Shown here in pieces: positions 9,044-61,666 of a stretch of DNA of 64,000 bases. Origin of the DNA: an uncultured Candidatus Saccharibacteria bacterium (GTDB lineage: Bacteria; Patescibacteriota; Minisyncoccia; Phycocordibacterales; Zambryskibacteraceae); contig CAYFZH010000001.1 of the NCBI GenBank assembly GCA_964347785.1, forward strand, positions 35,589-99,588. The letters run 5' to 3'. Position 1 is the stretch's first letter. Every line of letters starts with the position of its first letter. The position numbers were made by a program, and so were the translations under genes. The notes below the pieces were generated by a model. That model was not told the origin of the DNA and ran no database searches. It saw only the letters and a list, made by a program, of their open reading frames with translations.

Positions 9044-9093
9044 CCACAAAATAAGAAAAGACTGGAGCAGTCCAGTCTTTTCTTATTTTGTGG
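9044..9093. terminator. Perfect 23-bp-arm palindrome (ccacaaaataagaaaagactgga-gcag-tccagtcttttcttattttgtgg), a bidirectional terminator abutting the 3' end of tRNA-Ala(UGC)
   Basis: Exact inverted repeat with a 4-nt loop. The outer arm includes the tRNA 3' end (..TGG). Confidence 0.6.
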
Positions 9094-9163
9094 ACCCTAC
9101 CGGGATCGAACCGGTCACCTCCTCATTGCAAATGAGGCGCTCTACCAGATGAGCTAAGGGCCC
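9091..9163 (-). tRNA. tRNA-Ala (anticodon UGC)
   Basis: 73-nt cloverleaf folded by hand: acceptor GGGCCCU/AGGGUCC with a G3:U70 pair, D-arm GCUC/GAGC containing GG, anticodon loop UUUGCAA, and T-loop UUCGAUC. CCA is not encoded. Confidence 0.85.
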
Positions 9164-9222: not shown

Positions 9223-9293
9223 GGGCCCATAGTATAGTAGTAACACGCATCCATGGCATGGATGAGTCCGGAGTGCGATTCTCCGTGGGTCCA
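9223..9293 (+). tRNA. tRNA-Ala (anticodon GGC), noncanonical D- and T-loops
   Basis: 71 nt: acceptor GGGCCCA/UGGGUCC with G3:U70, and anticodon stem CAUCC/GGAUG with loop AUGGCAU. The D-loop lacks the conserved GG and the T-loop reads UGCGAUU (G at position 55). CCA is not encoded. Confidence 0.6.
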
Positions 9294-9317
9294 CAAAAGC
9301 GCGGGGCGCTTTTGTGG
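9291..9317 (+). terminator. Perfect palindrome ccacaaaagcgc-ggg-gcgcttttgtgg including the tRNA-Ala(GGC) 3' end
   Basis: 12-bp arms with a T-tract in the 3' arm. It shares the CCACAAAA/TTTTGTGG outer motif with the palindrome at 9044..9093. Confidence 0.5.
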
Positions 9318-17306: not shown

Positions 17307-19607
17307 GTGAAAGATTACGATCCGAAAGAAATAGAGAAGAAGTGGCAAGCAGAGTGGGAGAAGTCGGAGACCTCTAAGGCTCAAGAAGAAAGCGATGTGC
17401 CCAAGGAGTATCTCTTAGTAGAGTTCCCTTATCCGTCTGGCAACCTCCACGTCGGTCACTGGTACGCTTTCTCTGTGCCTGATATCAAGGCGAGGTTCGA
17501 GAGGATGAGAGGGAAGAACGTCTTTTTCCCTATAGGGTTCGACGCGTTCGGTCTCCCAGCAGAGAACGCAGCTATCAAGCGTGGACTCAACCCTCGTACT
17601 TGGACTCTCGACAACATCGCTTATATGAGAAACCAGCTTCGCTCGATGGGGGCGTCCTTCGACTGGTCTAGGGAGGTTATCACTTGTGAGCCGGAGTACT
17701 ACAAGTGGACACAGTGGCTCTTCCTCCAACTTTTCGACAAGGGTTTGGTCTACCAAGCAGAGAGGGAGGTGAACTGGTGTCCCAAGGACCTGACCGTGCT
17801 TGCTAACGAGCAGGTGATAAACGGTAAGTGCGAGCGTTGCGATACACTAGTCGAGAAGCGCAACATGCTCCAGTGGAATATAAAAATTACAGACTATGCT
17901 GACAGATTGATTGATGATCTCGAGGCGCTTGATTGGCCAAGGGCGATCAAGGAAAGTCAGAAGAACTGGATAGGCAGAAGTGAGGGAGCAGAGATAGAGT
18001 TCTCAATTCTCAATTCTCAATTTTCAGTTAAGGTCTTCACCACTCGACCCGACACAATCTATGGTGCGACTTATATGGTCCTTGCACCGGAGCATGAGCT
18101 GGTAGGGAAATTGAAATCAGAGATTTCTAACTTCTCTGAAGTTGAAGTTTATATCAACAAGACCAAGAACAAGACGGATATAGAGAGAAGTGCGGAGGGT
18201 AAGGAGAAGACAGGTGTCGAGCTCAAGGGAGTAAAAGCTATCAATCCTGCTAACAAAGAGGAGATACCTGTCTTTATCGCAGACTATGTCCTCCCTCACT
18301 ACGGTACGGGAGCGATCATGGCGGTACCTGCAGATGACGAGAGAGATAGAGAATTTGCCGAGGCTTATAAGTTGCAAATTGTTAAGGATTATCCAGAAGC
18401 AGGCTTCGAAGATTTCGGTCATAAGGTGACTAAGTTCAAACTCCGTGACTGGGTGGTCTCGAGGCAACGTTACTGGGGGGTACCGATACCTATGGCGCAT
18501 TGTGAGTCTTGTGGAGTTGTTCGTATACCAGATACTGATCTCCCTGTAGTCTTGCCCGAGATAGACGACTATCTACCCCACGACGACGGCAAGTCACCAC
18601 TTGCGAAGGCAGAATCTTGGGTAAATGTTAAATGTCCGAAGTGTGGAGGCTCGGCACAGAGAGACACAGATACGCTCGACACCTTCGTCGACTCTTCTTG
18701 GTATTACCTTAGATACACGGATCCAAAAAATACTGAAGCCTTCGCCTCTAGAGAACAGCTCGATAAATGGTTGCCCGTAGATCTCTACTCGGGCGGCTCG
18801 GAGCATACTACTATGCACCTTCTCTACTCGCGCTTCTGGCACAAGGCTCTCTATGACTGTGGACTAGTGCCACAGAGCGAACCATATCTCAAGAGGATGA
18901 ACAGAGGTCTCATCATGGGTCCAGATGGGCAGAAGATGAGTAAGTCCAAGGGCAACGTTATCGACCCAGACAAGGAGGTCGAGCGTCTAGGTGCTGACAC
19001 AGTGCGTATGTACCTCGCTTTCATCGGTCCTTACAACGAGGTCGGCTCTTATCCTTGGAACCCAGACGGCGCAGTGGGGGTGAGAAGGTTCCTCGAGAGA
19101 GTTTGGAGATTGGGACAGAAAGTTTCTAATTCTCCACTCCCAATTTCCAATGAATTTTCAATGCATCAGACGATAAAAAAAGTTGGAGAAGAAATTTCGT
19201 CAATGAAGATGAATACAGCAGTCTCTGCCCTGATGATCTTTACTAACGAACTCGACAAGAGAGAGAAAATTTCTCAAGAAGAATACGAAACCTTACTCAA
19301 GCTTCTCGCGCCGTTCGCTCCACACATGTCAGAAGAGCTTTGGCACACGCTGGGCCACACTACATCTATCCACACTGAAATCTGGCCGAAGTGGGATGAA
19401 AGCAAGCTCGTGTCGGACCAAGTTACACTCGTGGTACAGATAGACGGCAAGGTCAGGGCGCAGTTTCTCGCCTCTCCTGAGATGGCAGAAGATGAGGCTT
19501 ACCAGAGAGCACTTGAGTTGCCAGATGTGCAAAAGTGGGTTGGGGATAAGGAGGTCAAAAGGCGGGTCTATGTGAAGGGGAAATTGGTCAATCTGGTGGT
19601 ATCTTGA
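17307..19607 (+). CDS. leuS: Leucyl-tRNA synthetase
   Basis: HIGH (HVGH) and KMSKS motifs, plus CP1 editing-domain motifs (TTRPDT, GTGAIMAVPADDERD). 766 aa. GTG start. Confidence 0.95.
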   Translation: MKDYDPKEIEKKWQAEWEKSETSKAQEESDVPKEYLLVEFPYPSGNLHVGHWYAFSVPDIKARFERMRGKNVFFPIGFDAFGLPAENAAIKRGLNPRTWTLDNIAYMRNQLRSMGASFDWSREVITCEPEYYKWTQWLFLQLFDKGLVYQAEREVNWCPKDLTVLANEQVINGKCERCDTLVEKRNMLQWNIKITDYADRLIDDLEALDWPRAIKESQKNWIGRSEGAEIEFSILNSQFSVKVFTTRPDTIYGATYMVLAPEHELVGKLKSEISNFSEVEVYINKTKNKTDIERSAEGKEKTGVELKGVKAINPANKEEIPVFIADYVLPHYGTGAIMAVPADDERDREFAEAYKLQIVKDYPEAGFEDFGHKVTKFKLRDWVVSRQRYWGVPIPMAHCESCGVVRIPDTDLPVVLPEIDDYLPHDDGKSPLAKAESWVNVKCPKCGGSAQRDTDTLDTFVDSSWYYLRYTDPKNTEAFASREQLDKWLPVDLYSGGSEHTTMHLLYSRFWHKALYDCGLVPQSEPYLKRMNRGLIMGPDGQKMSKSKGNVIDPDKEVERLGADTVRMYLAFIGPYNEVGSYPWNPDGAVGVRRFLERVWRLGQKVSNSPLPISNEFSMHQTIKKVGEEISSMKMNTAVSALMIFTNELDKREKISQEEYETLLKLLAPFAPHMSEELWHTLGHTTSIHTEIWPKWDESKLVSDQVTLVVQIDGKVRAQFLASPEMAEDEAYQRALELPDVQKWVGDKEVKRRVYVKGKLVNLVVS

Positions 19608-24534: not shown

Positions 24535-25374
24535 ATGTTAAGCGAGGCAGAAGATATCATTATAGTTAAGGAGAATGGCAAGCATGAGAGCTTCGACTCA
24601 GAGAAGCTTCGCTTCTCACTTCTGCACTCGGGTGCCTCAGAAGAATCTGTGGAGGAGGTGATGAGTCGTGTAGTCCCAGAGCTCAAGAGTGGTATGACCA
24701 CTCAAGATATCTACTCGCACGCCTTCGCTGTGCTCGAAGGGTTGAACAAGAAAGTGGCAAGGAGTTACTCACTTCGCCGAGCAGTGATGCAACTTGGACC
24801 CTCTGGCTTTCCCTTCGAGGACTTCGTAGCAGAGATCTTGCGTGCCAAAGGTTTCGAGTGCAAGACTCGTCAGACTGTGCTCGGTGGTTGCGTCCCACAC
24901 GAAGTGGACGTGGTCGCTTACAATGAGAAGAAGCTCATCATGGTCGAGGCGAAGTTCCACAACGAGCTTGGTATCAAGTCCGATATCAAGGTGGCACTCT
25001 ATATCAAGGCACGCTTCGATGATATAAGGGAAAACGTCTTCAACTACGGTAGAGACAACCGCAAGGTGACAGACAGCTGGCTTATCACCAATACCAAGTT
25101 CTCCTCTACTGCTATCCACTACGGCGAGTGCAACAACATGACCCTTATCGGATGGAACTATCCTGAGCATGGTAGTCTCCAAGATATGATCGAGAGTGAG
25201 CGGCTACACCCTCTCACTTGTCTCACCACCCTTTCTGATACAGAGAAGAAGAAACTTCTCGAGAGTGGGGTCGTACTCTGTAGTAATATTAAGTCTGATC
25301 CGGAGGTGCTGAAGAGACTTCTGGGGCAAGAATTTATCATCGAACCTGTGCTTAATGAAATAAACGAATTATGA
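24535..25374 (+). CDS. ATP-cone domain fused to a PD-(D/E)xK (Mrr-like) nuclease-fold domain
   Basis: N-terminal ATP-cone (IIVKENGKHESFDSEKLRFSL). Central candidate D..ExK motif (HEVDVVAY..LIMVEAKFH). TATACT lies 7 nt upstream of the ATG. Confidence 0.6.
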   Translation: MLSEAEDIIIVKENGKHESFDSEKLRFSLLHSGASEESVEEVMSRVVPELKSGMTTQDIYSHAFAVLEGLNKKVARSYSLRRAVMQLGPSGFPFEDFVAEILRAKGFECKTRQTVLGGCVPHEVDVVAYNEKKLIMVEAKFHNELGIKSDIKVALYIKARFDDIRENVFNYGRDNRKVTDSWLITNTKFSSTAIHYGECNNMTLIGWNYPEHGSLQDMIESERLHPLTCLTTLSDTEKKKLLESGVVLCSNIKSDPEVLKRLLGQEFIIEPVLNEINEL

Positions 25375-26426: not shown

Positions 26427-26459
26427 TGGATTAGACATGTTCCCAAGGAGGGTCTGTCT

Positions 26460-26687
26460 ATGTGTGTGCATCCACCATCGCTTCTACGGCGTACCGAAAC
26501 CCCTGGTATTACGCGGTGTCTCGAATGTGGTGACACGCACAAGTGCGATCACCCTCAGTCTCGACAGACGGCAGGTCACGAGATCACCGTTTGCGCTGCT
26601 TGCGACGAGATCACGGCGTTCGACAGGGTCGTGCTCGTCGCACAGCCTTCGAGGATGGTTTACCCACCAAGCCATCTTCACCACTGA
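26460..26687 (+). CDS. GC-rich micro-protein with a CxxC-x17-CxxC zinc ribbon (75 aa), tentative
   Basis: Strong SD AAGGAGGG 7 nt upstream of the ATG, and a terminator immediately downstream. The region is about 60% GC with ORFs open in several frames, so a structured RNA cannot be excluded. Confidence 0.4.
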   Translation: MCVHPPSLLRRTETPGITRCLECGDTHKCDHPQSRQTAGHEITVCAACDEITAFDRVVLVAQPSRMVYPPSHLHH

Positions 26688-26693
26688 TTCCAC

Positions 26694-26735
26694 CGGCACC
26701 CCACGCGCGAAGCGTCGGGTGCCGTTCTATTTTTA
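26694..26735 (+). terminator. Rho-independent terminator (compound hairpin ccggcaccc..gggtgccg followed by TTCTATTTTT)
   Basis: Hairpin followed by a T5 tract just upstream of alaS. Confidence 0.6.
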
Positions 26736-26760
26736 GTGCCGAAATGCTATATTTCTAAGC

Positions 26761-28023
26761 ATGAATTCAAAAGAAATAAGAAAACGATTTGCAGATTTTT
26801 TTGAAAAGAGGGGACACGCTGTCATCCCTTCCGCTTCTCTCGTGCCTGATCAGAACGACAAGTCAGTACTCTTCAACACTGCAGGGATGCAACCTCTCCA
26901 ACCTTACCTTATGGGTGCAGAGCATCCGAAGGGTAAGCGCTTGGTCAACATTCAGAAGTGCGTCCGCACTCAAGATATCGAAGAAGTGGGGGACAAGACG
27001 CATGACACCTTCTTCGAAATGCTTGGTAACTGGTCTCTCGGTGATTATTTCAAAGAAGAGGCGATCAAGTGGAGTTTCGAGCTCCTTACTTCCAAGGAAG
27101 AGGGTTTCGGTCTCGATCCAAAGAGACTTTATGTCACCGTCTTCGAAGGAGATGATAACGCTCCTAAGGATACAGAGGCCTTCGAGATTTGGAAGAAGTA
27201 TATGCCAGAGAATCGTATCTATTTCCTCGGGGCAGATAAGAACTGGTGGAGTGTGGGACCCAATGGCCCATGTGGTCCTGATACAGAGATGTACTACGAC
27301 GTGACTCCAGAAGGTCTCGGTGATCTTAGTTTGGAGGAGTTCAAGAAGGTGGACGACGAGCAGAAGGTGGTCGAGATCTGGAACGACGTCTTCATGCAAT
27401 ATGAGAAGAAGGATGGCAGTATTGTAGGCAGGCTTTCTCAACAGAATGTCGATACCGGTGCCGGTCTTGAGCGTCTGGTTATGGCTCTGCAGAACAAGGA
27501 CAACATCTTCGATACAGATCTCTTTGCACCGCTCATGGCGATACTGCCGAAGGAGAAGGACCTCAAGTCCGCTCGAGTGGTCGCCGACCACATGCGTACA
27601 TCCGTTTTCATGATTGCTGATGGTGTAACTCCATCGAACACCGATAGGGGTTATATCCTCCGTCGACTATTACGCCGTTCGTATGTCCATGCGAGAAAAC
27701 TGGGAGCTAGTCCAGAAGTTCTTGAGTCTGTAGCAGAGCTCGTGGTGTCGCATGAGAGTTATAAGGGTCTCTACAGCTTCAACCCTGATACCATAAAGAT
27801 AATCAGAGAAGAAATAGAGAAGTTCAAGAAAGCTCTTGAAGCTGGACTAAAGCAAGTGGAGAAAGGAGCCGATCCCTTCACCCTCTTTACCAGTTATGGT
27901 TTGCCACTCGAGATTATCGAAGAGGTAACAGCAGTAGATCGGGAGAAGTTTGCGAAACAACTGGCTGAACACAAACAAATGTCCAGTGTGGCGGGTGAGC
28001 AGAAATTTAAAAGTACGTTATAA
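26761..28023 (+). CDS. alaS: Alanyl-tRNA synthetase, catalytic/tRNA-recognition N-terminal fragment only (420 aa; no editing or C-Ala domains)
   Basis: AlaRS N-terminal motifs (FFEKRGH, FNTAGM, KCVRT.DIE, LGNWS.GDYFK). The ORF ends with a TAA stop and the next gene is unrelated. Confidence 0.85.
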   Translation: MNSKEIRKRFADFFEKRGHAVIPSASLVPDQNDKSVLFNTAGMQPLQPYLMGAEHPKGKRLVNIQKCVRTQDIEEVGDKTHDTFFEMLGNWSLGDYFKEEAIKWSFELLTSKEEGFGLDPKRLYVTVFEGDDNAPKDTEAFEIWKKYMPENRIYFLGADKNWWSVGPNGPCGPDTEMYYDVTPEGLGDLSLEEFKKVDDEQKVVEIWNDVFMQYEKKDGSIVGRLSQQNVDTGAGLERLVMALQNKDNIFDTDLFAPLMAILPKEKDLKSARVVADHMRTSVFMIADGVTPSNTDRGYILRRLLRRSYVHARKLGASPEVLESVAELVVSHESYKGLYSFNPDTIKIIREEIEKFKKALEAGLKQVEKGADPFTLFTSYGLPLEIIEEVTAVDREKFAKQLAEHKQMSSVAGEQKFKSTL

Positions 28024-28030
28024 TTTGTCT

Positions 28031-29365
28031 ATGCCAAAAAATATCGACGATGTAATCTTGCCAGAAAGGAGGAAAAGCATCAGGAATATCCCCATCCCTG
28101 AAGGTCGGAGCAAAAAGGGTGAGAAAGTTGCTCTCGACGGTGTTAAGCGTCCTGCACGAGTAGCAGAAGATAGAGAAGAAGTTTCTCACGAAGCAGAACG
28201 TCACGAGTCATCTCGTCGTACACACAATCCCAAGAAGAAGATCTGGCTCGCTTCAGGTTTCGCCATCTTGGTACTCATCTTCTCTGTCCTCTCAATGTTT
28301 AAGGGTGGCACTCTCTCCTATGTGCCTAAGTCGGTAGATCTCAAGTTTGCAAACGACATCTTCTCTGCGGTCAAGACTGGTGAGGATAAGCTCACTTATA
28401 GTGTGGTCAAGCTCTCTGGGGATAAGGGAGTGAGTGTCCCTGCTACGGGAGAACAGGCGGTGAGTCGTAAGGCTTCCGGTATGATCGTGGTCTACAACGA
28501 CGCTTCAGCCGAACCTCAGAAGTTGGTCGAGAACACTCGTTTCGAGTCCCCAACAGGCAAGATCTACCGTATCGCTACAGCTATCACTATCCCCGGCAAG
28601 AAGACTGTGGCGGGTAAGTCTCAACCAGGGAGTATTGAGGTCAAGGTCAACGCAGATGTCGCTGGTGCTGAATACAACTCGGAGCCTACTGACTTTACCG
28701 TCCCCGGGCTCAAGGGATCTCCTCGTTACACCACTATCTATGCTCGTTCCTCCACTGCTATCTCTGGAGGGTTTGTGGGCAAGGAGAAGGCTGTCGCTCC
28801 AGCAGACTTAGAGAAGGCTAAGGCAGAGCTCAAGACTTCCCTCAGCCAAGGACTTCTAGCCAAGGCGCAAGCCGAGGTGCCGTCTGAGTTTATCCTCTTC
28901 CCCACACTCTCATCCGTCAGTTTTGAGGACCTACCACAGAGCAATACTGGTAGTGGGAGCACTGTGACGGTCAATCTCCGCGGTCACCTATACGGTATTA
29001 TGTTTAAGAAGAACGACCTCTCCCACGAGCTAGGCAAGAAGAAGGCCTCTCTGGCGAAGGATGATTCTGTTGAGCTCGTCTCCTTCGATTCTCTAGAACT
29101 AGCCTTCGCCGGTGTCGCACCAACCAACCTTCTCTCTCTCAATGAGATTAGCTTCAAGGTTACTGGAGAAAGTAAGCTCGTCTGGCGTACTGACGAGGTG
29201 GCTCTCAAGTCAGATATCCTAGGACGCAAGAAGTCTGAACTCTCTACTATCCTGAAGAATTACCCTACAATCTCATCCGCCTCTGCCACACTTAGACCAT
29301 TTTGGAAGACGACTTTTCCTCTAGAGGGTGATAAGGTGTCCGTGAAGAAATTAGAAATCAAATAA
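28031..29365 (+). CDS. Hypothetical membrane-anchored protein (444 aa; charged N-terminus, one TM, large beta-rich ectodomain)
   Basis: The ORF-track start at 27950 is out of frame. The ATG at 28031 lies 7 nt after the alaS stop. TAATG overlap with infA. Confidence 0.5.
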   Translation: MPKNIDDVILPERRKSIRNIPIPEGRSKKGEKVALDGVKRPARVAEDREEVSHEAERHESSRRTHNPKKKIWLASGFAILVLIFSVLSMFKGGTLSYVPKSVDLKFANDIFSAVKTGEDKLTYSVVKLSGDKGVSVPATGEQAVSRKASGMIVVYNDASAEPQKLVENTRFESPTGKIYRIATAITIPGKKTVAGKSQPGSIEVKVNADVAGAEYNSEPTDFTVPGLKGSPRYTTIYARSSTAISGGFVGKEKAVAPADLEKAKAELKTSLSQGLLAKAQAEVPSEFILFPTLSSVSFEDLPQSNTGSGSTVTVNLRGHLYGIMFKKNDLSHELGKKKASLAKDDSVELVSFDSLELAFAGVAPTNLLSLNEISFKVTGESKLVWRTDEVALKSDILGRKKSELSTILKNYPTISSASATLRPFWKTTFPLEGDKVSVKKLEIK

Positions 29366-43888: not shown

Positions 43889-44839
43889 ATGGCAAAGAAG
43901 ATTCTCCTCTCCGGTATCCAACCCACAGCTAAGCCTCATATAGGTAACTACTTCGGTGCGATGAGGCAGTTCGTCGATCTCCAGTCAGAGTACGAGAGCT
44001 ACGTCTTCATCGCGGACTTACACGCTCTCACTACTGTCAAAGACAAGAAACAACTCGAGGAGAATACTCTCGGAGTGATCCTCGACTATATGGCGATAGG
44101 ATTGGATCCAAAGAACGTCACACTCTACAAGCAATCCGATGTGCCACAGGTGACAGAACTTGCATGGATATTTAACTGTCTTACTACCGTACCTTATCTA
44201 GAGCGAGCACACGCTTATAAAGACGCTATCGCGAACGGCAAGGAATCAAGTGTGGGACTTTTTACCTACCCGCTTCTCATGGCGGCAGATATCCTCATCC
44301 AAGATGCAGACGTAGTCCCTGTTGGACAGGATCAGAAGCAACACGTCGAGATTGCTCGAGACACTGCAGAGAAGTTCAACAACGCCTTCGGCGATGTCTT
44401 CAAGCTTCCTCTGCCTATGATCCCCGCTGAAGTGGCAGTGGTCCCCGGTACAGATGGCAGGAAGATGAGCAAGAGTTACGGTAACACTATCCCACTCTTC
44501 GCTACCGACGAGGAGATAGAGAAGGCCGTGATGAGTATCGTCACAGACTCGGGCTCTGATATCCCGACCAATGTCTACGCTATCCACTCACTCCTCCGAG
44601 ACAAGACCGAGCTCGACTCTCTCTACGCAGAGCACAAGGGTCAGTACAAGAAGTTGAAGGAGCTCCTCATAGAAGATTTGAAGGTGTTTATCAAACCTAT
44701 GAGAGACAGGCGCCAAGCACTCGAAGAGGACAAGGAAGCCGTGCTCGAAGTACTCAAGGCTGGGGGTAAGGTGGCTCGTGAGAGAGCGGAGCAGAAGATG
44801 GAGAAGGTGAGAGAACTTGTCGGTCTTAAACTCTATTAA
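43889..44839 (+). CDS. trpS: Tryptophanyl-tRNA synthetase
   Basis: HIGH-like motif (PHIGNY), KMSKS, and a class Ic fold of 316 aa. Confidence 0.85.
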   Translation: MAKKILLSGIQPTAKPHIGNYFGAMRQFVDLQSEYESYVFIADLHALTTVKDKKQLEENTLGVILDYMAIGLDPKNVTLYKQSDVPQVTELAWIFNCLTTVPYLERAHAYKDAIANGKESSVGLFTYPLLMAADILIQDADVVPVGQDQKQHVEIARDTAEKFNNAFGDVFKLPLPMIPAEVAVVPGTDGRKMSKSYGNTIPLFATDEEIEKAVMSIVTDSGSDIPTNVYAIHSLLRDKTELDSLYAEHKGQYKKLKELLIEDLKVFIKPMRDRRQALEEDKEAVLEVLKAGGKVARERAEQKMEKVRELVGLKLY

Positions 44840-46665: not shown

Positions 46666-47964
46666 ATGATAACTAGAACACAGGTCAAGGATATCTCGAA
46701 GGAAGCTGGCAAGGAGTGCTCTGTAGCCGGCTTCGTCCACGCACTCCGTGTGCAGTCGAAGATCGTCTTTATCGTCCTGCGAGACATTACAGGAGTAGTC
46801 CAAGTGGTGGTCACTGCGGACAACTCACAGTTCGAGATAGCGAAGTCTCTCACTCTCGAGTCTGTCATCCGTGTGACGGGTATGGTCAAGGAGTCCGCTC
46901 AGGCACCCGGAGGCTTCGAGATCGAGCCGGTGACATCTATAGAGATCCTCAGTGCATCCGCTCCAGAGCTCCCGATACCGGTCGTGGTGAAGGGGAACGA
47001 TGAGGAGACAGAGGCACCTACTCGCTTCGACTACCGCTGGTTAGATCTACGCAAGCCAGAGAAGACCAAGATATTCAAGGTCTGGACCGAGTTCGAGAAG
47101 GGTTGGCGTGAGTATTGGGACAAGAATAACTATATCCAACTCTACCCACCAGCCTTTATGTCCACACCATCCGAGAGTGGGGCAGATGTCTTCGAGGTGA
47201 AGTACTTCGACAGGAAGGCATACCTCGCTCAGTCTCCGCAGTTTTACAAACAGATGGCGCAGTCGGCAGGGCTCGAGAGAGTCTTCATGGTGGCACCAGT
47301 CTTCCGTGCGGAAGAGTCCTTTACCACACGACATATGACCGAGTTTACTGGCTGGGACTTCGAACTCTCATATATCGAGAACCACCATGACATCATGGAC
47401 GAAGAAGAGGGGATGATAGTCGCTGGGTTCGAGAGACTAGAGAAGATGTTCCCTGAGCTCAATATCACTGTACCTACTCAACCCTTCCCCCGCATCACCA
47501 TGCTTGAGGCGAAGCAAATCTTGTCGACACTCGGTGTCAACAGTCCAGAAGAGCACGATCTCTCTCCAGAAGAAGAGCGGGCCATATCGGAGTATGTGCA
47601 TAAGGAGCACAATCACGAGTTCGTCTTCATCACCGAGTATCATAAGTCGAAGAGTGCCTTCTACCATATGCGTCTCGAGGAAGGCTCTGACAGATCTCGT
47701 CGCGCAGACCTGCTCTACCGAGGGATCGAGGTAACTACTCTCGCTCAACGTGAGCACAGACCAGAGATTCTCGAGAAGCAAGCAGTAGAGAAGGGGATGA
47801 ATCTTGAGTCTCTCAAGGACTATCTCAACTTCTTCCGCTACGGCTGTCCTCCACACGGTGGTGCTGGAGTCGGTCCAGCAAGGTTTATCATGAAGATCCT
47901 CGACCTCTCAAACGTCCGCGAAGCGACGTACCTCCCAAGGGATGTGAAGAGGTTGAATCCGTAA
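46666..47964 (+). CDS. aspS: Class IIb aminoacyl-tRNA synthetase, short archaeal/eukaryal-type. Probably aspartyl-tRNA synthetase; AsnRS is not excluded.
   Basis: N-terminal OB anticodon-binding domain, QSPQFYKQ, motif 2 FRAEESFTTRHMTEFTGWDFE and motif 3 GGAGVGPARFIM. The D in ..GWDFE favours AspRS. Confidence 0.65.
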   Translation: MITRTQVKDISKEAGKECSVAGFVHALRVQSKIVFIVLRDITGVVQVVVTADNSQFEIAKSLTLESVIRVTGMVKESAQAPGGFEIEPVTSIEILSASAPELPIPVVVKGNDEETEAPTRFDYRWLDLRKPEKTKIFKVWTEFEKGWREYWDKNNYIQLYPPAFMSTPSESGADVFEVKYFDRKAYLAQSPQFYKQMAQSAGLERVFMVAPVFRAEESFTTRHMTEFTGWDFELSYIENHHDIMDEEEGMIVAGFERLEKMFPELNITVPTQPFPRITMLEAKQILSTLGVNSPEEHDLSPEEERAISEYVHKEHNHEFVFITEYHKSKSAFYHMRLEEGSDRSRRADLLYRGIEVTTLAQREHRPEILEKQAVEKGMNLESLKDYLNFFRYGCPPHGGAGVGPARFIMKILDLSNVREATYLPRDVKRLNP

Positions 47965-52220: not shown

Positions 52221-54059
52221 ATGTGTGGTATCACCGGTATAACCGACAGCAGAATAGGGAGACTCGAGGAATCTATCCAGAAGATGAACCGTGCCATAGC
52301 GCACCGTGGACCAGACGACGATGGCTTCTTCGTCGACGTCTACGTGGCACTTGGGATGCGCCGACTCGCTATCATCGATCTAGACAAGGGACGCCAGCCC
52401 ATCTCCTCTACCGATGGGCGCTTCCTTATCTTCTTCAACGGAGAGATTTATAACTACAAGGAGCTCAAGAAGGAGCTCTCGGACTACGTCTTCAAAACGG
52501 AGAGTGATACTGAAGTGATCTTGGCAGGGTTTATCAAGTGGGGCGCAAACGGCGTACTCAGCCGTTTGCGCGGGATGTTCGCTCTCGCTATCTACGACAC
52601 AGAGGAGCACAAGATCCTCCTCGCTCGAGATCCATTTGGCATCAAGCCACTCTACTACTGGAAGGAGGATGGCAGGGTGAAGGCCTTCTCCTCGGAGATC
52701 AAGAGTTTCCTCGAGCTTTACTCCTTTAGACCTGAGGTCAATGACAGAGCTGTGGTCAACTTCCTCTCATACCAATACAATCCGCTCGATGAGACCTTTT
52801 TCAAAAATGTTTACAAACTTGCACCCAACCACTTACTCGCCATCGATCTGAAGACGGGCGTCTTCGACATAGAGTCTTATGGGCAGTTCAACTTCTCTCC
52901 GGATGAGAAGCTAGAAGAAGAACCGACCAAGCAGAAGATCCTCGAGACGATGGAGGACTCGGTCTCTCATCATATGATCGCCGATGTGCCAGTGGGGTCC
53001 TTCCTCTCTGGCGGGATAGATTCTTCTATCATTGCCACTCTGATGCAAAAGATTCGTGGAGAGAAGAAGATCAAGACATTTACTGTTGGATTCGAGAGTC
53101 TCTCGGAAGGAAATGAGGCCAAGGAAACAGCAGACCCTCTCGGGACCGAACACATTGAGATCACCGTGACTTCCGATGAATACTTCCAAGCCTTGCCTCA
53201 AGCGGTATGGCACTTCGACGAGCCGGTGGGGGATCCTTCGGCACTTGGACTCTATTTCCTTGCGAGAGAAGCGAGGAAGTCGGTCAAGGTGGTGCTCTCG
53301 GGAGAGGGGTCTGATGAGCTCTTCGGCGGGTACAATATATACCTTGCACCTCTAGCTCGAGCCAAGATGGCTTGGCTTCCACACTGGCTTCTAAGACTCT
53401 GTGTCAGTCTACCTTTCGAATACTATGGTAAGAACTATCTGCGTCGTGTGGAGATGAAGCTCTCGGAATGGTACTTCGGTCAGAAGTACTTCAACGAGTC
53501 TATCTTCCAGAGAGAAGAGATTGGTAAACTTTGGAAGGGGAAACCACAAGAGTTTCTCTCTCTTGAATCCTTATACAAGGATATTGCCCACTTGAGCGAC
53601 TCTACTCAGATGCAGTATATCGATATCCACACATGGCTTGTCGGAGACATCTTGGCGAAGGCAGATAAGATGACGATGGCTCACTCGCTTGAGCTCCGCG
53701 TGCCCTTCCTCGACAAGGAGGTGGCAAGACTCTCTGAGACTCTGCCTGACAGGTTTAAGTGGCGTGGGGGTGTGACCAAGTATCTCTTGCGAGAGGCTTT
53801 TAGATCCGTGCTTCCAGAATCTACGAGGAATAGGAGGAAGCTCGGTTTCCCCACTCCGGTCAAGAACTGGTTTACTAGAGATAGGCAGGATATCTACGAC
53901 TTCATCTTGGAGAACGCTTATGTCAAATCACACTTAGATACTGACATTATCAAGAAATTGGTGGAAGATCACCTGTCTCAAAAGAGAGATAACTCAAGGA
54001 AAATTTACCTCCTTCTACAGCTCAGCCTCTGGTACAATACCTTTATCGAAAGAAAATAA
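52221..54059 (+). CDS. asnB: Asparagine synthetase B-type glutamine amidotransferase
   Basis: N-terminal Cys2 (MCGI), a GATase-2 domain, and PP-loop SGGIDSS. 612 aa. Confidence 0.85.
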   Translation: MCGITGITDSRIGRLEESIQKMNRAIAHRGPDDDGFFVDVYVALGMRRLAIIDLDKGRQPISSTDGRFLIFFNGEIYNYKELKKELSDYVFKTESDTEVILAGFIKWGANGVLSRLRGMFALAIYDTEEHKILLARDPFGIKPLYYWKEDGRVKAFSSEIKSFLELYSFRPEVNDRAVVNFLSYQYNPLDETFFKNVYKLAPNHLLAIDLKTGVFDIESYGQFNFSPDEKLEEEPTKQKILETMEDSVSHHMIADVPVGSFLSGGIDSSIIATLMQKIRGEKKIKTFTVGFESLSEGNEAKETADPLGTEHIEITVTSDEYFQALPQAVWHFDEPVGDPSALGLYFLAREARKSVKVVLSGEGSDELFGGYNIYLAPLARAKMAWLPHWLLRLCVSLPFEYYGKNYLRRVEMKLSEWYFGQKYFNESIFQREEIGKLWKGKPQEFLSLESLYKDIAHLSDSTQMQYIDIHTWLVGDILAKADKMTMAHSLELRVPFLDKEVARLSETLPDRFKWRGGVTKYLLREAFRSVLPESTRNRRKLGFPTPVKNWFTRDRQDIYDFILENAYVKSHLDTDIIKKLVEDHLSQKRDNSRKIYLLLQLSLWYNTFIERK

Positions 54060-60256: not shown

Positions 60257-60466
60257 GGGTCACCTTTCTTCTTTCTGCCTCCGGCTTTGTTTCCGGTGGT
60301 CAGTGAGTGGTCTAAAGAACACACGCTTTCGGGCGTGACCGGTTACTTAGATTTCACCAGTACTTACATAATACACCCAAATTAGTACTTTGTCAAGTAA
60401 ACCACAAAATAAGCCTAGAAATAAGGGTGTCTTAAGAGATGATTGGTCTATGCTAAAATATTCTTC

Positions 60467-61666
60467 ATGAATGAGAAAATCGTAGTTCGCATACCACCAT
60501 CCCCGACAGGGAACCTGCATATCGGTACAGCTCGTACTGCTCTCTTCAACTACCTCTTTGCCAAGAAGCATGGGGGCAAGGTATTACTCCGTAGTGAGGA
60601 CACAGACAAGGAGAGGTCTAAGAAAGAATTCGAAGACAATATTATAGAAGGTCTGGCTTGGCTTGGTGTCGAGTATGACGGTGAGATGGTCAGACAGTCG
60701 GAGAGAACTGAGATTTATATTAAGTATCTCAAGCAAATGATTGAGGGTGGTACCGCTTATGTTTCTAAAGAGGAACCCAAGGAAGAGGGTCAGAGAGCAG
60801 AAGTGATACGACTTAGGAATCCCAACAAGAAGGTGAAGTTTAACGACCTCGTCCGCGGAGAGATCGAGTTCGACACGACCGAGCTCAAGGACTTCGTCAT
60901 AGCGAAGAGTCTTGAGGAGCCACTCTACCACCTCGCTGTAGTAGTGGATGATCACGAGATGGGTGTGACACACATCATCCGTGGAGAAGACCATATCTCA
61001 AACACTCCCAGACAGATCTTGATCCAAGAAGCATTGGGTCTGCCACGCCCTGAGTATGCTCACATTCCTCTTATCCTTGCTCCAGATCGCTCCAAACTCT
61101 CTAAGAGGCACGGCGCTACTTCTCTCGCTGAATACAAAGAGAAGGGTTATCTTCCACAAGCGATGGTGAATTATCTGGCACTCCTCGGTTGGAACCCGGG
61201 TACAGAGCAAGAAATCTTCTCTATGTCAGAGCTTATCGAGCAGTTCGACCTCAAGAAGATTCAGAAGGGGGGAGCGATCTTCGACGAGAAGAAGCTGGAG
61301 TGGGTCAACAAGGAGCATGTAAAGCTCTTGCCACCCGAGGAGCAGAGAGCTCGACTACTCGCCTCGATACAGGATGAGCCATATATGAAGGGTGTACCAG
61401 AACTAGATTTGTCGAAGATTTGTTGGAAGGAGGTTAGTAAGGAAGATACCAAGAATCACTTGGCTAAGGTCAAGGAAATGCTAGGAGACCCAGATGCTAC
61501 AATGAAGTACGCAGAACAAGTGGGGAAGGGGAATGTCCTCTGGCCTCTGCGCTACGCTCTCTCTGGTCTTGAGAAGTCTCCGGACCCGTTTACTTTGCTC
61601 TCGATTCTCGGTCAAGAAGAATCCCTCAGGCGTGTTGAGAGAGCGATCGAAGCCCTCAACCAATAA
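60467..61666 (+). CDS. gltX: Glutamyl-tRNA synthetase (short)
   Basis: HIGH (PSPTGNLHIGTAR) and KMSKS-like KLSKR motifs. An extended -10 (TGCTAAAAT) lies 7 nt upstream of the ATG. The ORF-track TTG at 60443 is an extension. Confidence 0.85.
   Translation: MNEKIVVRIPPSPTGNLHIGTARTALFNYLFAKKHGGKVLLRSEDTDKERSKKEFEDNIIEGLAWLGVEYDGEMVRQSERTEIYIKYLKQMIEGGTAYVSKEEPKEEGQRAEVIRLRNPNKKVKFNDLVRGEIEFDTTELKDFVIAKSLEEPLYHLAVVVDDHEMGVTHIIRGEDHISNTPRQILIQEALGLPRPEYAHIPLILAPDRSKLSKRHGATSLAEYKEKGYLPQAMVNYLALLGWNPGTEQEIFSMSELIEQFDLKKIQKGGAIFDEKKLEWVNKEHVKLLPPEEQRARLLASIQDEPYMKGVPELDLSKICWKEVSKEDTKNHLAKVKEMLGDPDATMKYAEQVGKGNVLWPLRYALSGLEKSPDPFTLLSILGQEESLRRVERAIEALNQ

What the first reader, a model, noticed from the sequence alone, without database searches (positions are those of the whole stretch)
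26761..28023. AlaRS reduced to its aminoacylation domain; both tRNA-Ala genes keep G3:U70
alaS stops after about 420 aa, at the end of the catalytic and tRNA-recognition domain. The next gene is an unrelated membrane protein, so the editing (HxxxH/CxxxH) and C-Ala domains are absent from this locus.

Editing of Ser/Gly-tRNA-Ala would then require a trans-acting AlaX-type protein encoded elsewhere, or tolerance of mischarging.

The two tRNA-Ala genes in this window retain G3:U70, consistent with recognition by the N-terminal domain alone.
Basis: partly seen in the sequence, partly recalled or inferred. Interest (0 to 1): 0.55.

Follow-up and report, generated by a model that had tools for sequence, protein, structure and literature searches.

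The report
Bacterial alanyl-tRNA synthetase without editing domain
An ultra-small (Patescibacteria) bacterium carries a working-looking alanine-charging enzyme that has lost its built-in proofreading part; its relatives lost the same part several separate times, and until now this layout was described only in one giant virus.

Summary
[quoted passage not shown] It stops 7 nt before an unrelated membrane-protein gene. No editing (HxxxH/CxxxH) or C-Ala sequence exists in the 64-kb window or in about 13 kb of extra flank. Both tRNA-Ala genes carry G3:U70.

It is not an artefact. The identical protein occurs in at least 4 assemblies. Thirty-seven homologues (62-86% identical) end at the same ...KFK linker. 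All pocket residues are invariant, dN is 0.08-0.18 with saturated dS, and the gene sits where sister genomes carry a ~580-aa alaS.

The ancestor was the described "small AlaRS" (catalytic + recognition + an AlaX-S-like editing core, no C-Ala). The editing core was lost at least 3 times in this Paceibacteria group. Intermediates exist: a 1-nt frameshift split, and an editing domain decaying in place.

Unresolved: whether editing is supplied in trans or abandoned. I could not scan whole genomes. No dispersed stand-alone editing gene was found among six candidates examined.

This is a cellular counterpart of the Tupanvirus "mini-AlaRS", and I found no paper describing one. Verdict: new variant of a known kind, interest about 0.63.

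The parts
26761..28023 (+). alaS encoding a 420-aa 'mini' AlaRS: catalytic domain plus helical tRNA-recognition domain. It ends ...AGEQKFKSTL, at the linker that precedes the editing domain in relatives.
   Evidence: ORF and sequence. PF01411 E 3.5e-119. PDB sequence matches to the catalytic fragments of A. aeolicus (residues 2-405) and E. coli (3-390). AF2 model pLDDT 86.8, TM 0.79-0.80 to 3HXU and 1RIQ. Pocket residues conserved.
28031..29365 (+). Downstream gene for a 444-aa single-pass membrane protein with a weak GlxA-like beta-barrel hit. It marks the 3' boundary and is unrelated to AlaRS editing or C-Ala.
   Evidence: The same neighbour (440-444 aa) follows the short alaS in L093, L094 and L095.
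9090..9163 (-). tRNA-Ala(UGC), canonical, with G3:U70. CCA is not encoded.
   Evidence: ARAGORN, sequence, Rfam 64.2 bits.
9223..9294 (+). tRNA-Ala(GGC) with G3:U70 and an atypical elbow (A at the G18 position, G at the U55 position).
   Evidence: ARAGORN, sequence, Rfam 50.3 bits with alignment.
26427..26760 (+). 334-nt GC-rich structured spacer upstream of alaS, ending in a hairpin plus U-run about 25 nt before the ATG. It may be a leader or an ncRNA. Its relation to alaS is unproven.
   Evidence: Fold z-score -4.44 on the + strand, 0 of 100 shuffles. No Rfam match at E<=5. Absent from relatives.

Best explanation
The gene is the cell's housekeeping alanyl-tRNA synthetase, cut down to its aminoacylation core.

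Shown:
- It is the positional orthologue of the ~580-aa 'small AlaRS' of sister Paceibacteria (catalytic domain, recognition domain and a ~150-aa AlaX-S-like editing core; no C-Ala).
- The editing core was removed right after the conserved ...KFKGG linker, and this happened at least three separate times in the group.
- All alanine/ATP pocket residues and the recognition-domain Asn are intact, and the gene is under strong purifying selection.

Inferred from the behaviour of engineered N-terminal fragments and of the Tupanvirus mini-AlaRS:
- The enzyme activates alanine and charges tRNA-Ala by reading the acceptor stem (G3:U70, kept in both tRNA-Ala genes). It makes no contact with the tRNA elbow and cannot hydrolyse Ser- or Gly-tRNA-Ala itself.

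Inferred route of loss:
- A frameshift arises at the A/T-run-rich linker codons. The gene becomes a split gene, the editing ORF decays, and it is then deleted.

My commitment on fidelity (sub-probability about 0.45, against about 0.40 for an unlinked AlaX):
- These cells run without dedicated Ser-tRNA-Ala proofreading and tolerate the resulting low-level Ala-to-Ser/Gly mistranslation, as editing-defective Mycoplasma synthetases do.
For: - Real gene: the identical 420-aa product occurs in ENA ERZ27247837, Logan ERR3094292, Logan ERR3094302 and a 118-kb NCBI contig.
- Conserved truncation: 37 of the top 120 homologues are 396-447 aa with PF01411 only, and all end at ...KFK plus a few residues (up to about 20 in three cases).
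- Orthology: the gene order sigma70 - DUF8128 - YceG - MnmA - ... - alaS - ~440 aa - infA - rpsM - rpsK - rpsD - rpoA is the same around short alaS (window, L093-L096) and long alaS (L004).
- Selection: dN is 0.08-0.18 with saturated dS, and dN/dS is 0.048 for L094 against L093.
- Pocket residues: the E. coli equivalents R69, W170, N212, V214 and D235 are invariant in all 37 short and 82 long forms. G237 is invariant except for one Cys in a short form. N303 is kept in 35 of 37 short and 80 of 82 long forms.
- Fold: the model matches the crystallised catalytic fragments at TM 0.79-0.80.
- Ancestral editing core was competent: HTATH and CGGPH motifs are present, and it aligns to the P. horikoshii AlaRS editing core and to AlaX-S.
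- Repeated loss: 3-9 state changes (mode 5-6) in 200 bootstrap NJ trees, never fewer than 3. Tail sequences match each cluster's nearest long relatives.
- Intermediates: a 1-nt insertion split at the linker in L005-7, seen in 126 collection blocks. In L019 the editing domain carries at least 4 frameshifts while the N-terminal ORF is intact.
- No editing homologue in the window, its flanks, or +-10 kb of four short-form relatives.
- None of six stand-alone PF07973 candidates on contigs longer than 70 kb is a dispersed gene.
- Both tRNA-Ala genes keep G3:U70.
- The Tupanvirus mini-AlaRS shows that such an enzyme can charge tRNA-Ala specifically and support yeast growth (PMC10036535).
Against: - Only about 77 kb of a genome likely to be 0.6-1 Mb was inspected, so an unlinked AlaX, a DTD or a second alaS cannot be excluded.
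- The search for stand-alone editing proteins listed only the 120 hits most similar to one query. A divergent AlaX would not have been seen.
- AlaRS editing is regarded as near-universal, which lowers the prior for complete absence.
- Pocket residues are the same in short and long forms, and no convergent compensatory substitution was found. Misactivation of Ser and Gly is therefore presumably unchanged and something should deal with it.
- The E. coli N461 fragment binds tRNA poorly (PMC10036535). Good activity of this enzyme is assumed, not shown.
- The D400 equivalent is Thr, so the mode of G3:U70 reading is uncertain.
Confidence: 0.45

Rival explanations
1. The enzyme and its history are the same, but proofreading is supplied in trans. 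A free-standing AlaX-type deacylase encoded elsewhere clears Ser-tRNA-Ala, possibly with DTD for Gly-tRNA-Ala. Its presence made the cis domain redundant and allowed repeated loss.
For: - Repeated loss is concentrated in one group of Paceibacteria: 37 of the 120 closest homologues are short, against 1 of 80 more distant GTDB loci. This suggests a lineage-specific permissive factor.
- Pocket residues are unchanged, so misacylation should still occur.
- The L005-7 split shows that the editing core can exist as a separate 140-aa ORF starting at MYHTATH.
- AlaX proteins are known in all three domains, and DTD edits Gly-tRNA-Ala (PMC5409826, PMC11260482).
Against: - No such gene is in the window, its flanks or +-10 kb of four relatives.
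- All six examined stand-alone candidates were assembly gaps, error-ridden long-read contigs or an adjacent split.
- In L019 the domain decays in place and is not kept as a separate gene.
- No paper linking AlaX to CPR bacteria was found.
Confidence: 0.4
2. The short gene is a paralogue with a non-translational or auxiliary role (an AlaRS-like enzyme, as in natural-product or cell-wall pathways). A normal alaS with an editing domain lies elsewhere in the genome.
For: - NCBI names several of these proteins 'alanine--tRNA ligase-related protein'.
- The scores are below the alaS equivalog cut-offs.
- AlaRS-like enzymes exist in secondary metabolism (abstract of PMC12945691).
Against: - The short gene occupies the position of the long alaS in syntenic genomes, next to the infA-rpsM-rpoA ribosomal cluster.
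- It is 63-69% identical to long forms and nests among them.
- All catalytic residues are kept.
- The low NCBIfam score follows simply from the missing C-terminal third.
- Paralogous aaRS genes would be unexpected in genomes this reduced (general knowledge).
Confidence: 0.05
3. The truncation is an artefact: a sequencing or assembly error, or a frameshift that hides a downstream editing domain.
For: Some apparent stand-alone editing ORFs in public data are indeed artefacts, caused by N-gaps or long-read frameshifts.
Against: - The product and gene order are identical in at least four assemblies from different runs.
- The next gene starts 7 nt after the stop, and no editing-like sequence exists in any frame.
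- 37 diverged homologues share the same end point.
Confidence: 0.02
4. Editing became unnecessary because the catalytic site of this lineage discriminates better against Ser and Gly. This would be an intrinsic high-fidelity AlaRS, like the engineered L219M mutant.
For: - A single substitution can abolish Ser misactivation (PMC12143591).
- All 37 short forms have Ala or Gly at the motif-3 position after the pocket Gly (E. coli M238), while 53 of 82 long forms have Ser. Short clusters D and E differ here from their nearest long relatives.
Against: - The L219 and V204 equivalents are unchanged: Leu and Val in all sequences.
- A systematic scan found no convergent short-specific change in the pocket.
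- The residue-238 signal is weak: about 15% of neighbouring long forms also have Ala (counts).
Confidence: 0.08

Closest known systems
Tupanvirus mini-AlaRS (TuAlaRS, 461 aa; PMC10036535)
   Same: It has the same architecture: catalytic plus tRNA-recognition domains only, with no editing domain and no C-Ala. Thr sits at the position of the conserved Asp (E. coli D400). The cognate tRNAs keep G3:U70.
   Different: TuAlaRS is viral and derived from its amoebal host's eukaryotic AlaRS, and the host cell still has full AlaRS and editing. The gene here is bacterial and chromosomal, the positional orthologue of the housekeeping alaS, and 41 aa shorter. It keeps the conserved Asn (TuAlaRS has Pro). 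It arose repeatedly from a small-AlaRS ancestor.
'small-AlaRS' of CPR, DPANN, Asgard and other lineages (bioRxiv 10.1101/2023.05.29.542759; NCBIfam NF002436 / PRK01584, ~580-600 aa)
   Same: This is the direct ancestor family. N-terminal identity is 62-69%. It shares the shortened motif-2 loop (QKCVRT.DI..VGD, 5 residues shorter than E. coli, without AGGKH), shares Thr at the D400 position, and has no C-Ala.
   Different: small-AlaRS retains a ~150-aa AlaX-S-like editing core with HxxxH and CxxxH. The window protein has none.
Engineered catalytic fragments: E. coli AlaRS441 / 461N, A. aeolicus AlaRS453, Methylomonas AlaRS429
   Same: Domain content and fold are the same (TM 0.79-0.80). These fragments are known to activate alanine and to charge tRNA-Ala or microhelices in a G3:U70-dependent way (established knowledge; PMC10036535).
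   Different: The fragments are laboratory truncations of four-domain enzymes, and E. coli N461 binds tRNA weakly. The protein here is a natural product under purifying selection.
Split AlaRS of Nanoarchaeum equitans
   Same: In both, AlaRS functions are not encoded in one polypeptide of canonical length.
   Different: The N. equitans split lies inside the recognition domain, and the beta subunit (rest of recognition + editing + C-Ala) is required for G3:U70 specificity (PMC10036535). Here the recognition domain is complete and no second subunit was found. The adjacent-ORF split seen in L005-7 lies at the editing linker instead.
Editing-defective aaRSs of Mycoplasma and microsporidia (LeuRS, PheRS, ThrRS)
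   Same: These are reduced-genome organisms that lost aaRS proofreading and tolerate mistranslation. They are a functional precedent for the tolerance reading (my own knowledge, not tested here).
   Different: They involve other synthetases. Loss of AlaRS editing in a cellular lineage has not, to my knowledge, been described.
AlaX-S (P. horikoshii PH0574; PDB 1V4P, 1WNU)
   Same: The module lost here is homologous to AlaX-S and about the same size. The 140-aa split-gene product P0162 aligns to AlaX-S residues 9-135.
   Different: AlaX-S is a free-standing trans-editing protein. No such gene was detected in the sequence available.

Membership tests
AlaRS aminoacylation core (class IIc, PF01411) | Sequence match over the catalytic and recognition domains | tested here: met
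   PF01411 E 3.5e-119, residues 5-414. PDB catalytic fragments E 1.6e-75.
AlaRS aminoacylation core (class IIc, PF01411) | Alanine/ATP pocket residues (E. coli R69, W170, N212, V214, D235, G237; motif 3 GxGxER) | tested here: met
   All are present in the query. R69, W170, N212, V214 and D235 are invariant in 37 short and 82 long relatives; G237 has one Cys exception among the short forms.
AlaRS aminoacylation core (class IIc, PF01411) | Three-dimensional fold of the catalytic fragment | tested here: met
   AF2 pLDDT 86.8, pTM 0.83. Foldseek TM 0.79-0.80 to 3HXU, 1RIQ and 9JC7.
AlaRS aminoacylation core (class IIc, PF01411) | G3:U70-reading residues Asn303 and Asp400 (E. coli numbering) | tested here: inconclusive
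   Asn is kept (N293). The Asp position is Thr (T377), as in all Paceibacteria long forms and in TuAlaRS (PMC10036535).
AlaRS aminoacylation core (class IIc, PF01411) | Cognate tRNA-Ala with G3:U70 in the same genome | tested here: met
   Both tRNA-Ala genes carry it.
AlaRS aminoacylation core (class IIc, PF01411) | Alanylation of tRNA-Ala in vitro or in vivo | not testable with these tools
   Needs biochemistry or complementation.
Canonical alaS equivalog (TIGR00344 / NF002436) | Score above the curated cut-off, with the editing domain (HxxxH, CxxxH) | tested here: not met
   409.9 bits against a cut-off of 457, and 423 against 529. No editing sequence in any frame.
Canonical alaS equivalog (TIGR00344 / NF002436) | C-Ala domain | tested here: not met
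   The protein ends at residue 420. Long relatives also end right after the editing core.
small-AlaRS (catalytic + ATL + editing) | Phylogenetic nesting and the family-specific short motif-2 loop | tested here: met
   Nested among 572-612-aa forms. The 23-residue QKCVRT...FFEM loop occurs in all 78 ORFs where the QxCxR...FFEM pattern could be matched.
small-AlaRS (catalytic + ATL + editing) | Presence of the editing domain | tested here: not met
mini-AlaRS (as defined for Tupanvirus) | Only the aminoacylation domain present | tested here: met
mini-AlaRS (as defined for Tupanvirus) | Common descent with TuAlaRS (eukaryote/host-derived) | tested here: not met
   The nearest relatives are Paceibacteria small-AlaRS at 62-86% identity. 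The similarity in architecture is therefore convergent.
Split AlaRS (Nanoarchaeum type) | A second gene encoding the rest of the recognition domain plus editing and C-Ala | tested here: not met
   The recognition domain is complete in this ORF. No partner gene is in the window or flanks. Elsewhere in the genome was not testable.
AlaX trans-editing system | Stand-alone PF07973 protein in the same genome | not testable with these tools
   Absent from about 77 kb examined.

The most novel reading that the evidence does not exclude
Several Paceibacteria lineages are cellular organisms that have given up Ser/Gly-tRNA-Ala proofreading altogether, with no cis editing domain and no AlaX. This would break the assumed universality of AlaRS editing. 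The enzyme would also be the smallest natural AlaRS (about 420 aa), working without the C-Ala domain, without the motif-2 'GGKH' loop and without the conserved Asp, and so reading G3:U70 in a different way.
Probability: 0.35. Interest if true: 0.85.

Novelty: new variant of a known kind. Interest (0 to 1): 0.63.

Why it matters
AlaRS is described as the one synthetase that keeps its four-domain prototype throughout life. Its editing function is considered so important that free-standing AlaX copies exist in all domains of life. [quoted passage not shown]

This locus shows the same minimal architecture as the housekeeping enzyme of free-standing cells. It arose repeatedly, and evolutionary intermediates are still visible. 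That gives a natural system for three questions:
- Is AlaRS editing truly indispensable?
- How is G3:U70 read without C-Ala, the GGKH loop and the conserved Asp?
- How much Ala-to-Ser mistranslation can a minimal cell bear?

There is also a practical consequence. These genes fall below alaS equivalog cut-offs and are labelled 'alanine--tRNA ligase-related protein'. Annotation and completeness pipelines may therefore wrongly report alaS as missing.

Tried and rejected
- Editing domain hidden in another frame or nearby: rejected. tblastn and hmmsearch --max found nothing over the window, the flanks and four relatives' loci.
- Stand-alone editing proteins from the search with P0015's editing domain. 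Six on contigs longer than 70 kb were examined. P0134 is an N-gap inside a long alaS. P0191 and P0138 come from long-read contigs full of frameshifts. P0161 is an N-gap. P0162 is a real split, but the two ORFs are adjacent. P0160 is named a partial alaS by NCBI. None is a dispersed AlaX.
- Linking editing-domain proteins to short-alaS MAGs through neighbouring NCBI accession numbers: no accessions were available for the candidates.
Of 80 loci, 79 were long forms.
- Natural L219M-like high-fidelity substitution: not present.
- Convergent compensatory substitutions in short forms: none convincing. There is only a weak Ser-to-Ala signal at the E. coli 238 position.
- T-box or other known leader upstream of alaS: no Rfam hit even at E<=5.
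- DTD or AlaX among window genes: none by Pfam. The last batch of about 9 ORFs failed on a coordinate error and was not rerun. Those genes are partly covered by the annotations.
- Literature on a cellular editing-less AlaRS in CPR or Patescibacteria: none found.
Full report
**1. The observation**

The ORF at 26761..28023 (+) starts with ATG and ends with TAA at 28021-28023, giving 420 aa. Pfam PF01411 (class II AlaRS) matches residues 5-414 against profile positions 1-434 of 552, E 3.5e-119. The NCBIfam alaS models align only by their N-terminal parts (1-445/595 and 1-429/847). The scores, 423 and 410 bits, fall below the equivalog cut-offs of 529 and 457.

The next gene begins at 28031, 7 nt after the stop and in another frame. 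It encodes a 444-aa protein with one hydrophobic N-terminal segment and a weak GlxA beta-barrel hit.

I took the C-terminal extensions of 82 close full-length relatives. They carry HTATH and CGGPH, that is the HxxxH and CxxxH motifs. I searched the whole window with them. tblastn gave a best E of 0.025 over 82 queries, and a profile search with filters off on all six frames gave a best E of 0.08. The 10 kb upstream and 3 kb downstream of the window are also negative.

ARAGORN and Rfam find tRNA-Ala(UGC) at 9090-9163 (-) and tRNA-Ala(GGC) at 9223-9294 (+). Their acceptor stems read GGGCCCU/AGGGUCC and GGGCCCA/UGGGUCC, so both have G3 opposite U70.

**2. It is not an artefact or a pseudogene**

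- The identical 420-aa product, with the same neighbours, occurs in an ENA assembly, two Logan assemblies of different runs and a 118-kb NCBI contig.
- Among the 120 best database homologues, 37 are 396-447 aa with PF01411 only. One is 497 aa with PF01411 only. The other 82 are 572-612 aa, and 81 of those also carry PF07973.
- All 37 short proteins end at the same conserved linker...(A/S)GE(Q/N)KFK, followed by a few residues (up to about 20 in three cases). In the long forms this linker continues as KFKGGLA-x5-8-HTATHLL.
- E. coli residues R69, W170, N212, V214 and D235 are invariant in all 119 sequences. G237 is invariant except for one Cys in a short form.
- Against two short-form relatives (86% and 77% aa identity), dN is 0.08 and 0.16 with saturated dS. 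Between those two relatives dN/dS is 0.048.
- An AlphaFold model (pLDDT 86.8, pTM 0.83) superposes on the crystallised 'catalytic fragments' of E. coli (3HXU), A. aeolicus (1RIQ) and Methylomonas (9JC7) at TM 0.79-0.80. The model ends in a long helix (394-417) and a 9-residue disordered tail.

**3. It is the housekeeping alaS**

The window has this gene order: LeuRS - sigma70 - DUF8128 - YceG - 135-aa ORF - MnmA - ATP-cone/Mrr - MgtC - UDG - alaS - 444-aa protein - infA - rpsM - rpsK - rpsD - rpoA - rplQ - rplM - rpsI - ... - grpE - dnaK.

The core of this order (sigma70 - DUF8128 - YceG - MnmA ... alaS ... infA - rpsM - rpsK - rpsD - rpoA) recurs around short alaS genes of three other clusters: L093 and L094, L095, and L096. 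The genes immediately next to alaS vary among them. The same order also surrounds a long alaS in L004 (GCA_964348515.1). That gene is interrupted only by a scaffold N-gap, and its editing core is 83% identical to the query I used. Short and long genes are therefore positional orthologues.

**4. What was lost, and how often**

The long relatives are the 'small-AlaRS' already described from CPR, DPANN and Asgard: catalytic, recognition and editing domains, without the barrel and without C-Ala (bioRxiv 10.1101/2023.05.29.542759).

Their C-terminal ~150 aa align to the editing core of P. horikoshii AlaRS (residues 612-746) and to the free-standing AlaX-S (1V4P residues 9-135). Absence of C-Ala is therefore a family trait. 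What is special here is the loss of the editing core.

On a neighbour-joining tree of the shared N-terminal 405 columns, the short forms fall into about five clusters among long forms. Fitch parsimony over 200 bootstrap trees needs 3-9 state changes (mode 5-6) and never fewer than 3. Random labels need 26-37. The tails support independence: clusters near 'EQKFKGG' long forms end EQKFK, and clusters near 'GMFKGG' long forms end MFK.

Two intermediates were found.
- In L005-7 a single inserted C (ggtCggttta) at the GG of KFKGG splits alaS into a 442-aa gene and a 140-aa editing gene 10 nt apart. The second gene starts MYHTATH. This is one species-level population, seen in 126 collection blocks.
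- In L019 (Paceibacterota ABC1.149) the N-terminal 447-aa ORF is intact, but the ~450-nt editing region carries at least 4 frameshifts. The first lies in the A-run of the linker codons.

The linker is encoded by A/T runs (CAA AAA TTT AAA GGT GGT), a plausible slippage hot spot. This last step is an inference. Of 80 GTDB loci with small-AlaRS from Clostridia, Lentisphaeria, spirochaetes, DPANN, Asgard and other CPR, 79 are intact long forms.

**5. How it most likely works**

Shown: the protein has the full aminoacylation core, and its tRNAs keep the universal identity pair.

Inferred from established work on E. coli 461N/441 and A. aeolicus 453 fragments and on the Tupanvirus mini-AlaRS (PMC10036535): such a core activates alanine and charges tRNA-Ala through the acceptor stem alone.

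Three deviations are shared with the long forms.
- The conserved Asn (E. coli N303) is kept, but the Asp (D400) is Thr. The Tupanvirus enzyme has the same residue at that position.
- The motif-2 loop is 5 residues shorter and lacks the E. coli AGGKH segment.
- There is no C-Ala.

The way the acceptor stem and CCA end are handled probably differs from the canonical enzyme. That is a property of the whole small-AlaRS family.

**6. Fidelity**

The enzyme cannot edit in cis. The pocket is identical in short and long forms. The L219/V204 equivalents implicated in Ser rejection are unchanged. A systematic scan found no convergent short-specific substitution. The only hint is Ala or Gly in 37 of 37 short forms at the motif-3 position after the pocket Gly, where 53 of 82 long forms have Ser. 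Misactivation of Ser and Gly is therefore presumably unchanged.

Either an unlinked factor deacylates Ser/Gly-tRNA-Ala, or the cell tolerates the errors. I could not decide between these. All six stand-alone candidates on contigs longer than 70 kb turned out to be gaps, error-ridden assemblies, an adjacent split or a 'partial alaS'.

The domain decays in place in L019 and has been deleted cleanly several times. Reduced-genome Mycoplasma tolerate editing-defective synthetases (my own knowledge). For these reasons I lean slightly towards tolerance (about 0.45) over an unlinked AlaX (about 0.40).

**7. Comparison with what is known, and novelty**

In architecture this is a 'mini-AlaRS' in the sense of the Tupanvirus enzyme. 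It is not related to that enzyme by descent: it is bacterial, chromosomal, 41 aa shorter, and nested in Paceibacteria small-AlaRS.

It is not a Nanoarchaeum-type split. It is not a member of small-AlaRS as defined, because the editing domain is absent. It fails the alaS equivalog cut-offs only because a third of the model is missing.

Seven full-text searches on this question found the viral mini-AlaRS and the small-AlaRS papers. They found no description of a cellular editing-less AlaRS, and nothing linking AlaX to CPR. The 2023 paper states that TuAlaRS is, to its authors' knowledge, the only natural aaRS with only the aminoacylation domain. I therefore rate this a new variant of a known kind.

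**8. Verdict**

Beyond that reading:
- the ancestor was a small-AlaRS;
- the loss is recurrent, and intermediates were caught;
- the gene is the housekeeping orthologue under purifying selection.

The open point is whether any Ser-tRNA-Ala editing remains in these cells. This is directly testable by whole-genome scans and simple biochemistry. Interest 0.63.

Noticed in passing
window 26427-26760 (+): 334-nt spacer between the UDG gene and alaS. Its GC is 0.56-0.58 against about 0.49 for the window. The + strand folds far better than shuffles (-128.7 kcal/mol, z -4.44, 0 of 100). It ends in a GGCACCC...GGGUGCC hairpin plus a U-run about 25 nt before the alaS start. There is no Rfam match at E<=5. 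It is identical in three assemblies of this organism and absent from relatives, whose spacers are 20 nt or an unrelated 180 nt. It may be an unknown leader or ncRNA.
   Followed up: partly
window 9223-9293 (+): tRNA-Ala(GGC) scores only 50 bits. It has A where G18 is expected and G where U55 is expected, so both partners of the 18:55 elbow pair are changed. It also has one D-stem mismatch. This could be relevant because an AlaRS without C-Ala does not read the elbow. tRNA-Ala(UGC) is canonical. Neither gene encodes CCA.
   Followed up: partly
window 26950-27000 (alaS residues 65-87); also 78 small-AlaRS ORFs among loci L001-L092: The motif-2 loop of the whole small/mini-AlaRS family is 5 residues shorter than in E. 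coli (QKCVRT.DI..VGD..H.TFFEM against [28 protein letters not shown]). It lacks the Gly-Gly-Lys-His segment that I believe corresponds to the CCA 'route separator' and to Lys73 of canonical AlaRS. That mapping comes from memory and from PMC10036535 and was not verified structurally.
   Followed up: partly
L005-L007, 4662-6423: In a widespread CPR population (126 collection blocks; 140-aa products 97-99% identical) alaS is split by a 1-nt insertion at the KFKGG linker. The result is a 442-aa gene and a 140-aa editing gene 10 nt apart. Two of the variants change residues in or next to the zinc motifs: HTATR for HTATH, and ERCGGPH for EICGGPH.
   Followed up: partly
L019, 9944-11704 (JAWKSM010000003.1, Paceibacterota ABC1.149): The alaS N-terminal ORF (447 aa) is intact, while the downstream editing region is broken by at least 4 frameshifts. 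This looks like an editing domain caught while decaying, unless it reflects local assembly error.
   Followed up: partly
L094, 51-2786: The LeuRS of the closest relative is 911 aa and has a NUDIX (PF00293) hit inside it. The window's LeuRS (17307-19607) is 766 aa and has none.
   Followed up: no
window 24535-25374 (+): 279-aa protein combining an N-terminal ATP-cone with an Mrr_cat/Hjc-like nuclease domain. It is conserved next to MgtC and UDG in relatives.
   Followed up: no
alaS residue 234 (window 27460-27462): The motif-3 position after the pocket Gly (E. coli M238) is Ala or Gly in all 37 short forms and Ser in 53 of 82 long forms. Two short clusters differ here from their nearest long relatives. 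This is a weak hint of a change linked to loss of editing.
   Followed up: partly
window 43889-44839, 46666-47964, 60443-61666, 17307-19607: Four more aaRS genes lie in the same 64 kb: a 316-aa class Ib Trp/Tyr-type, a 432-aa Asp/Asn-type, a roughly 400-aa GluRS and LeuRS. All are compact. An AsnB-type asparagine synthase is at 52221-54059.
   Followed up: no
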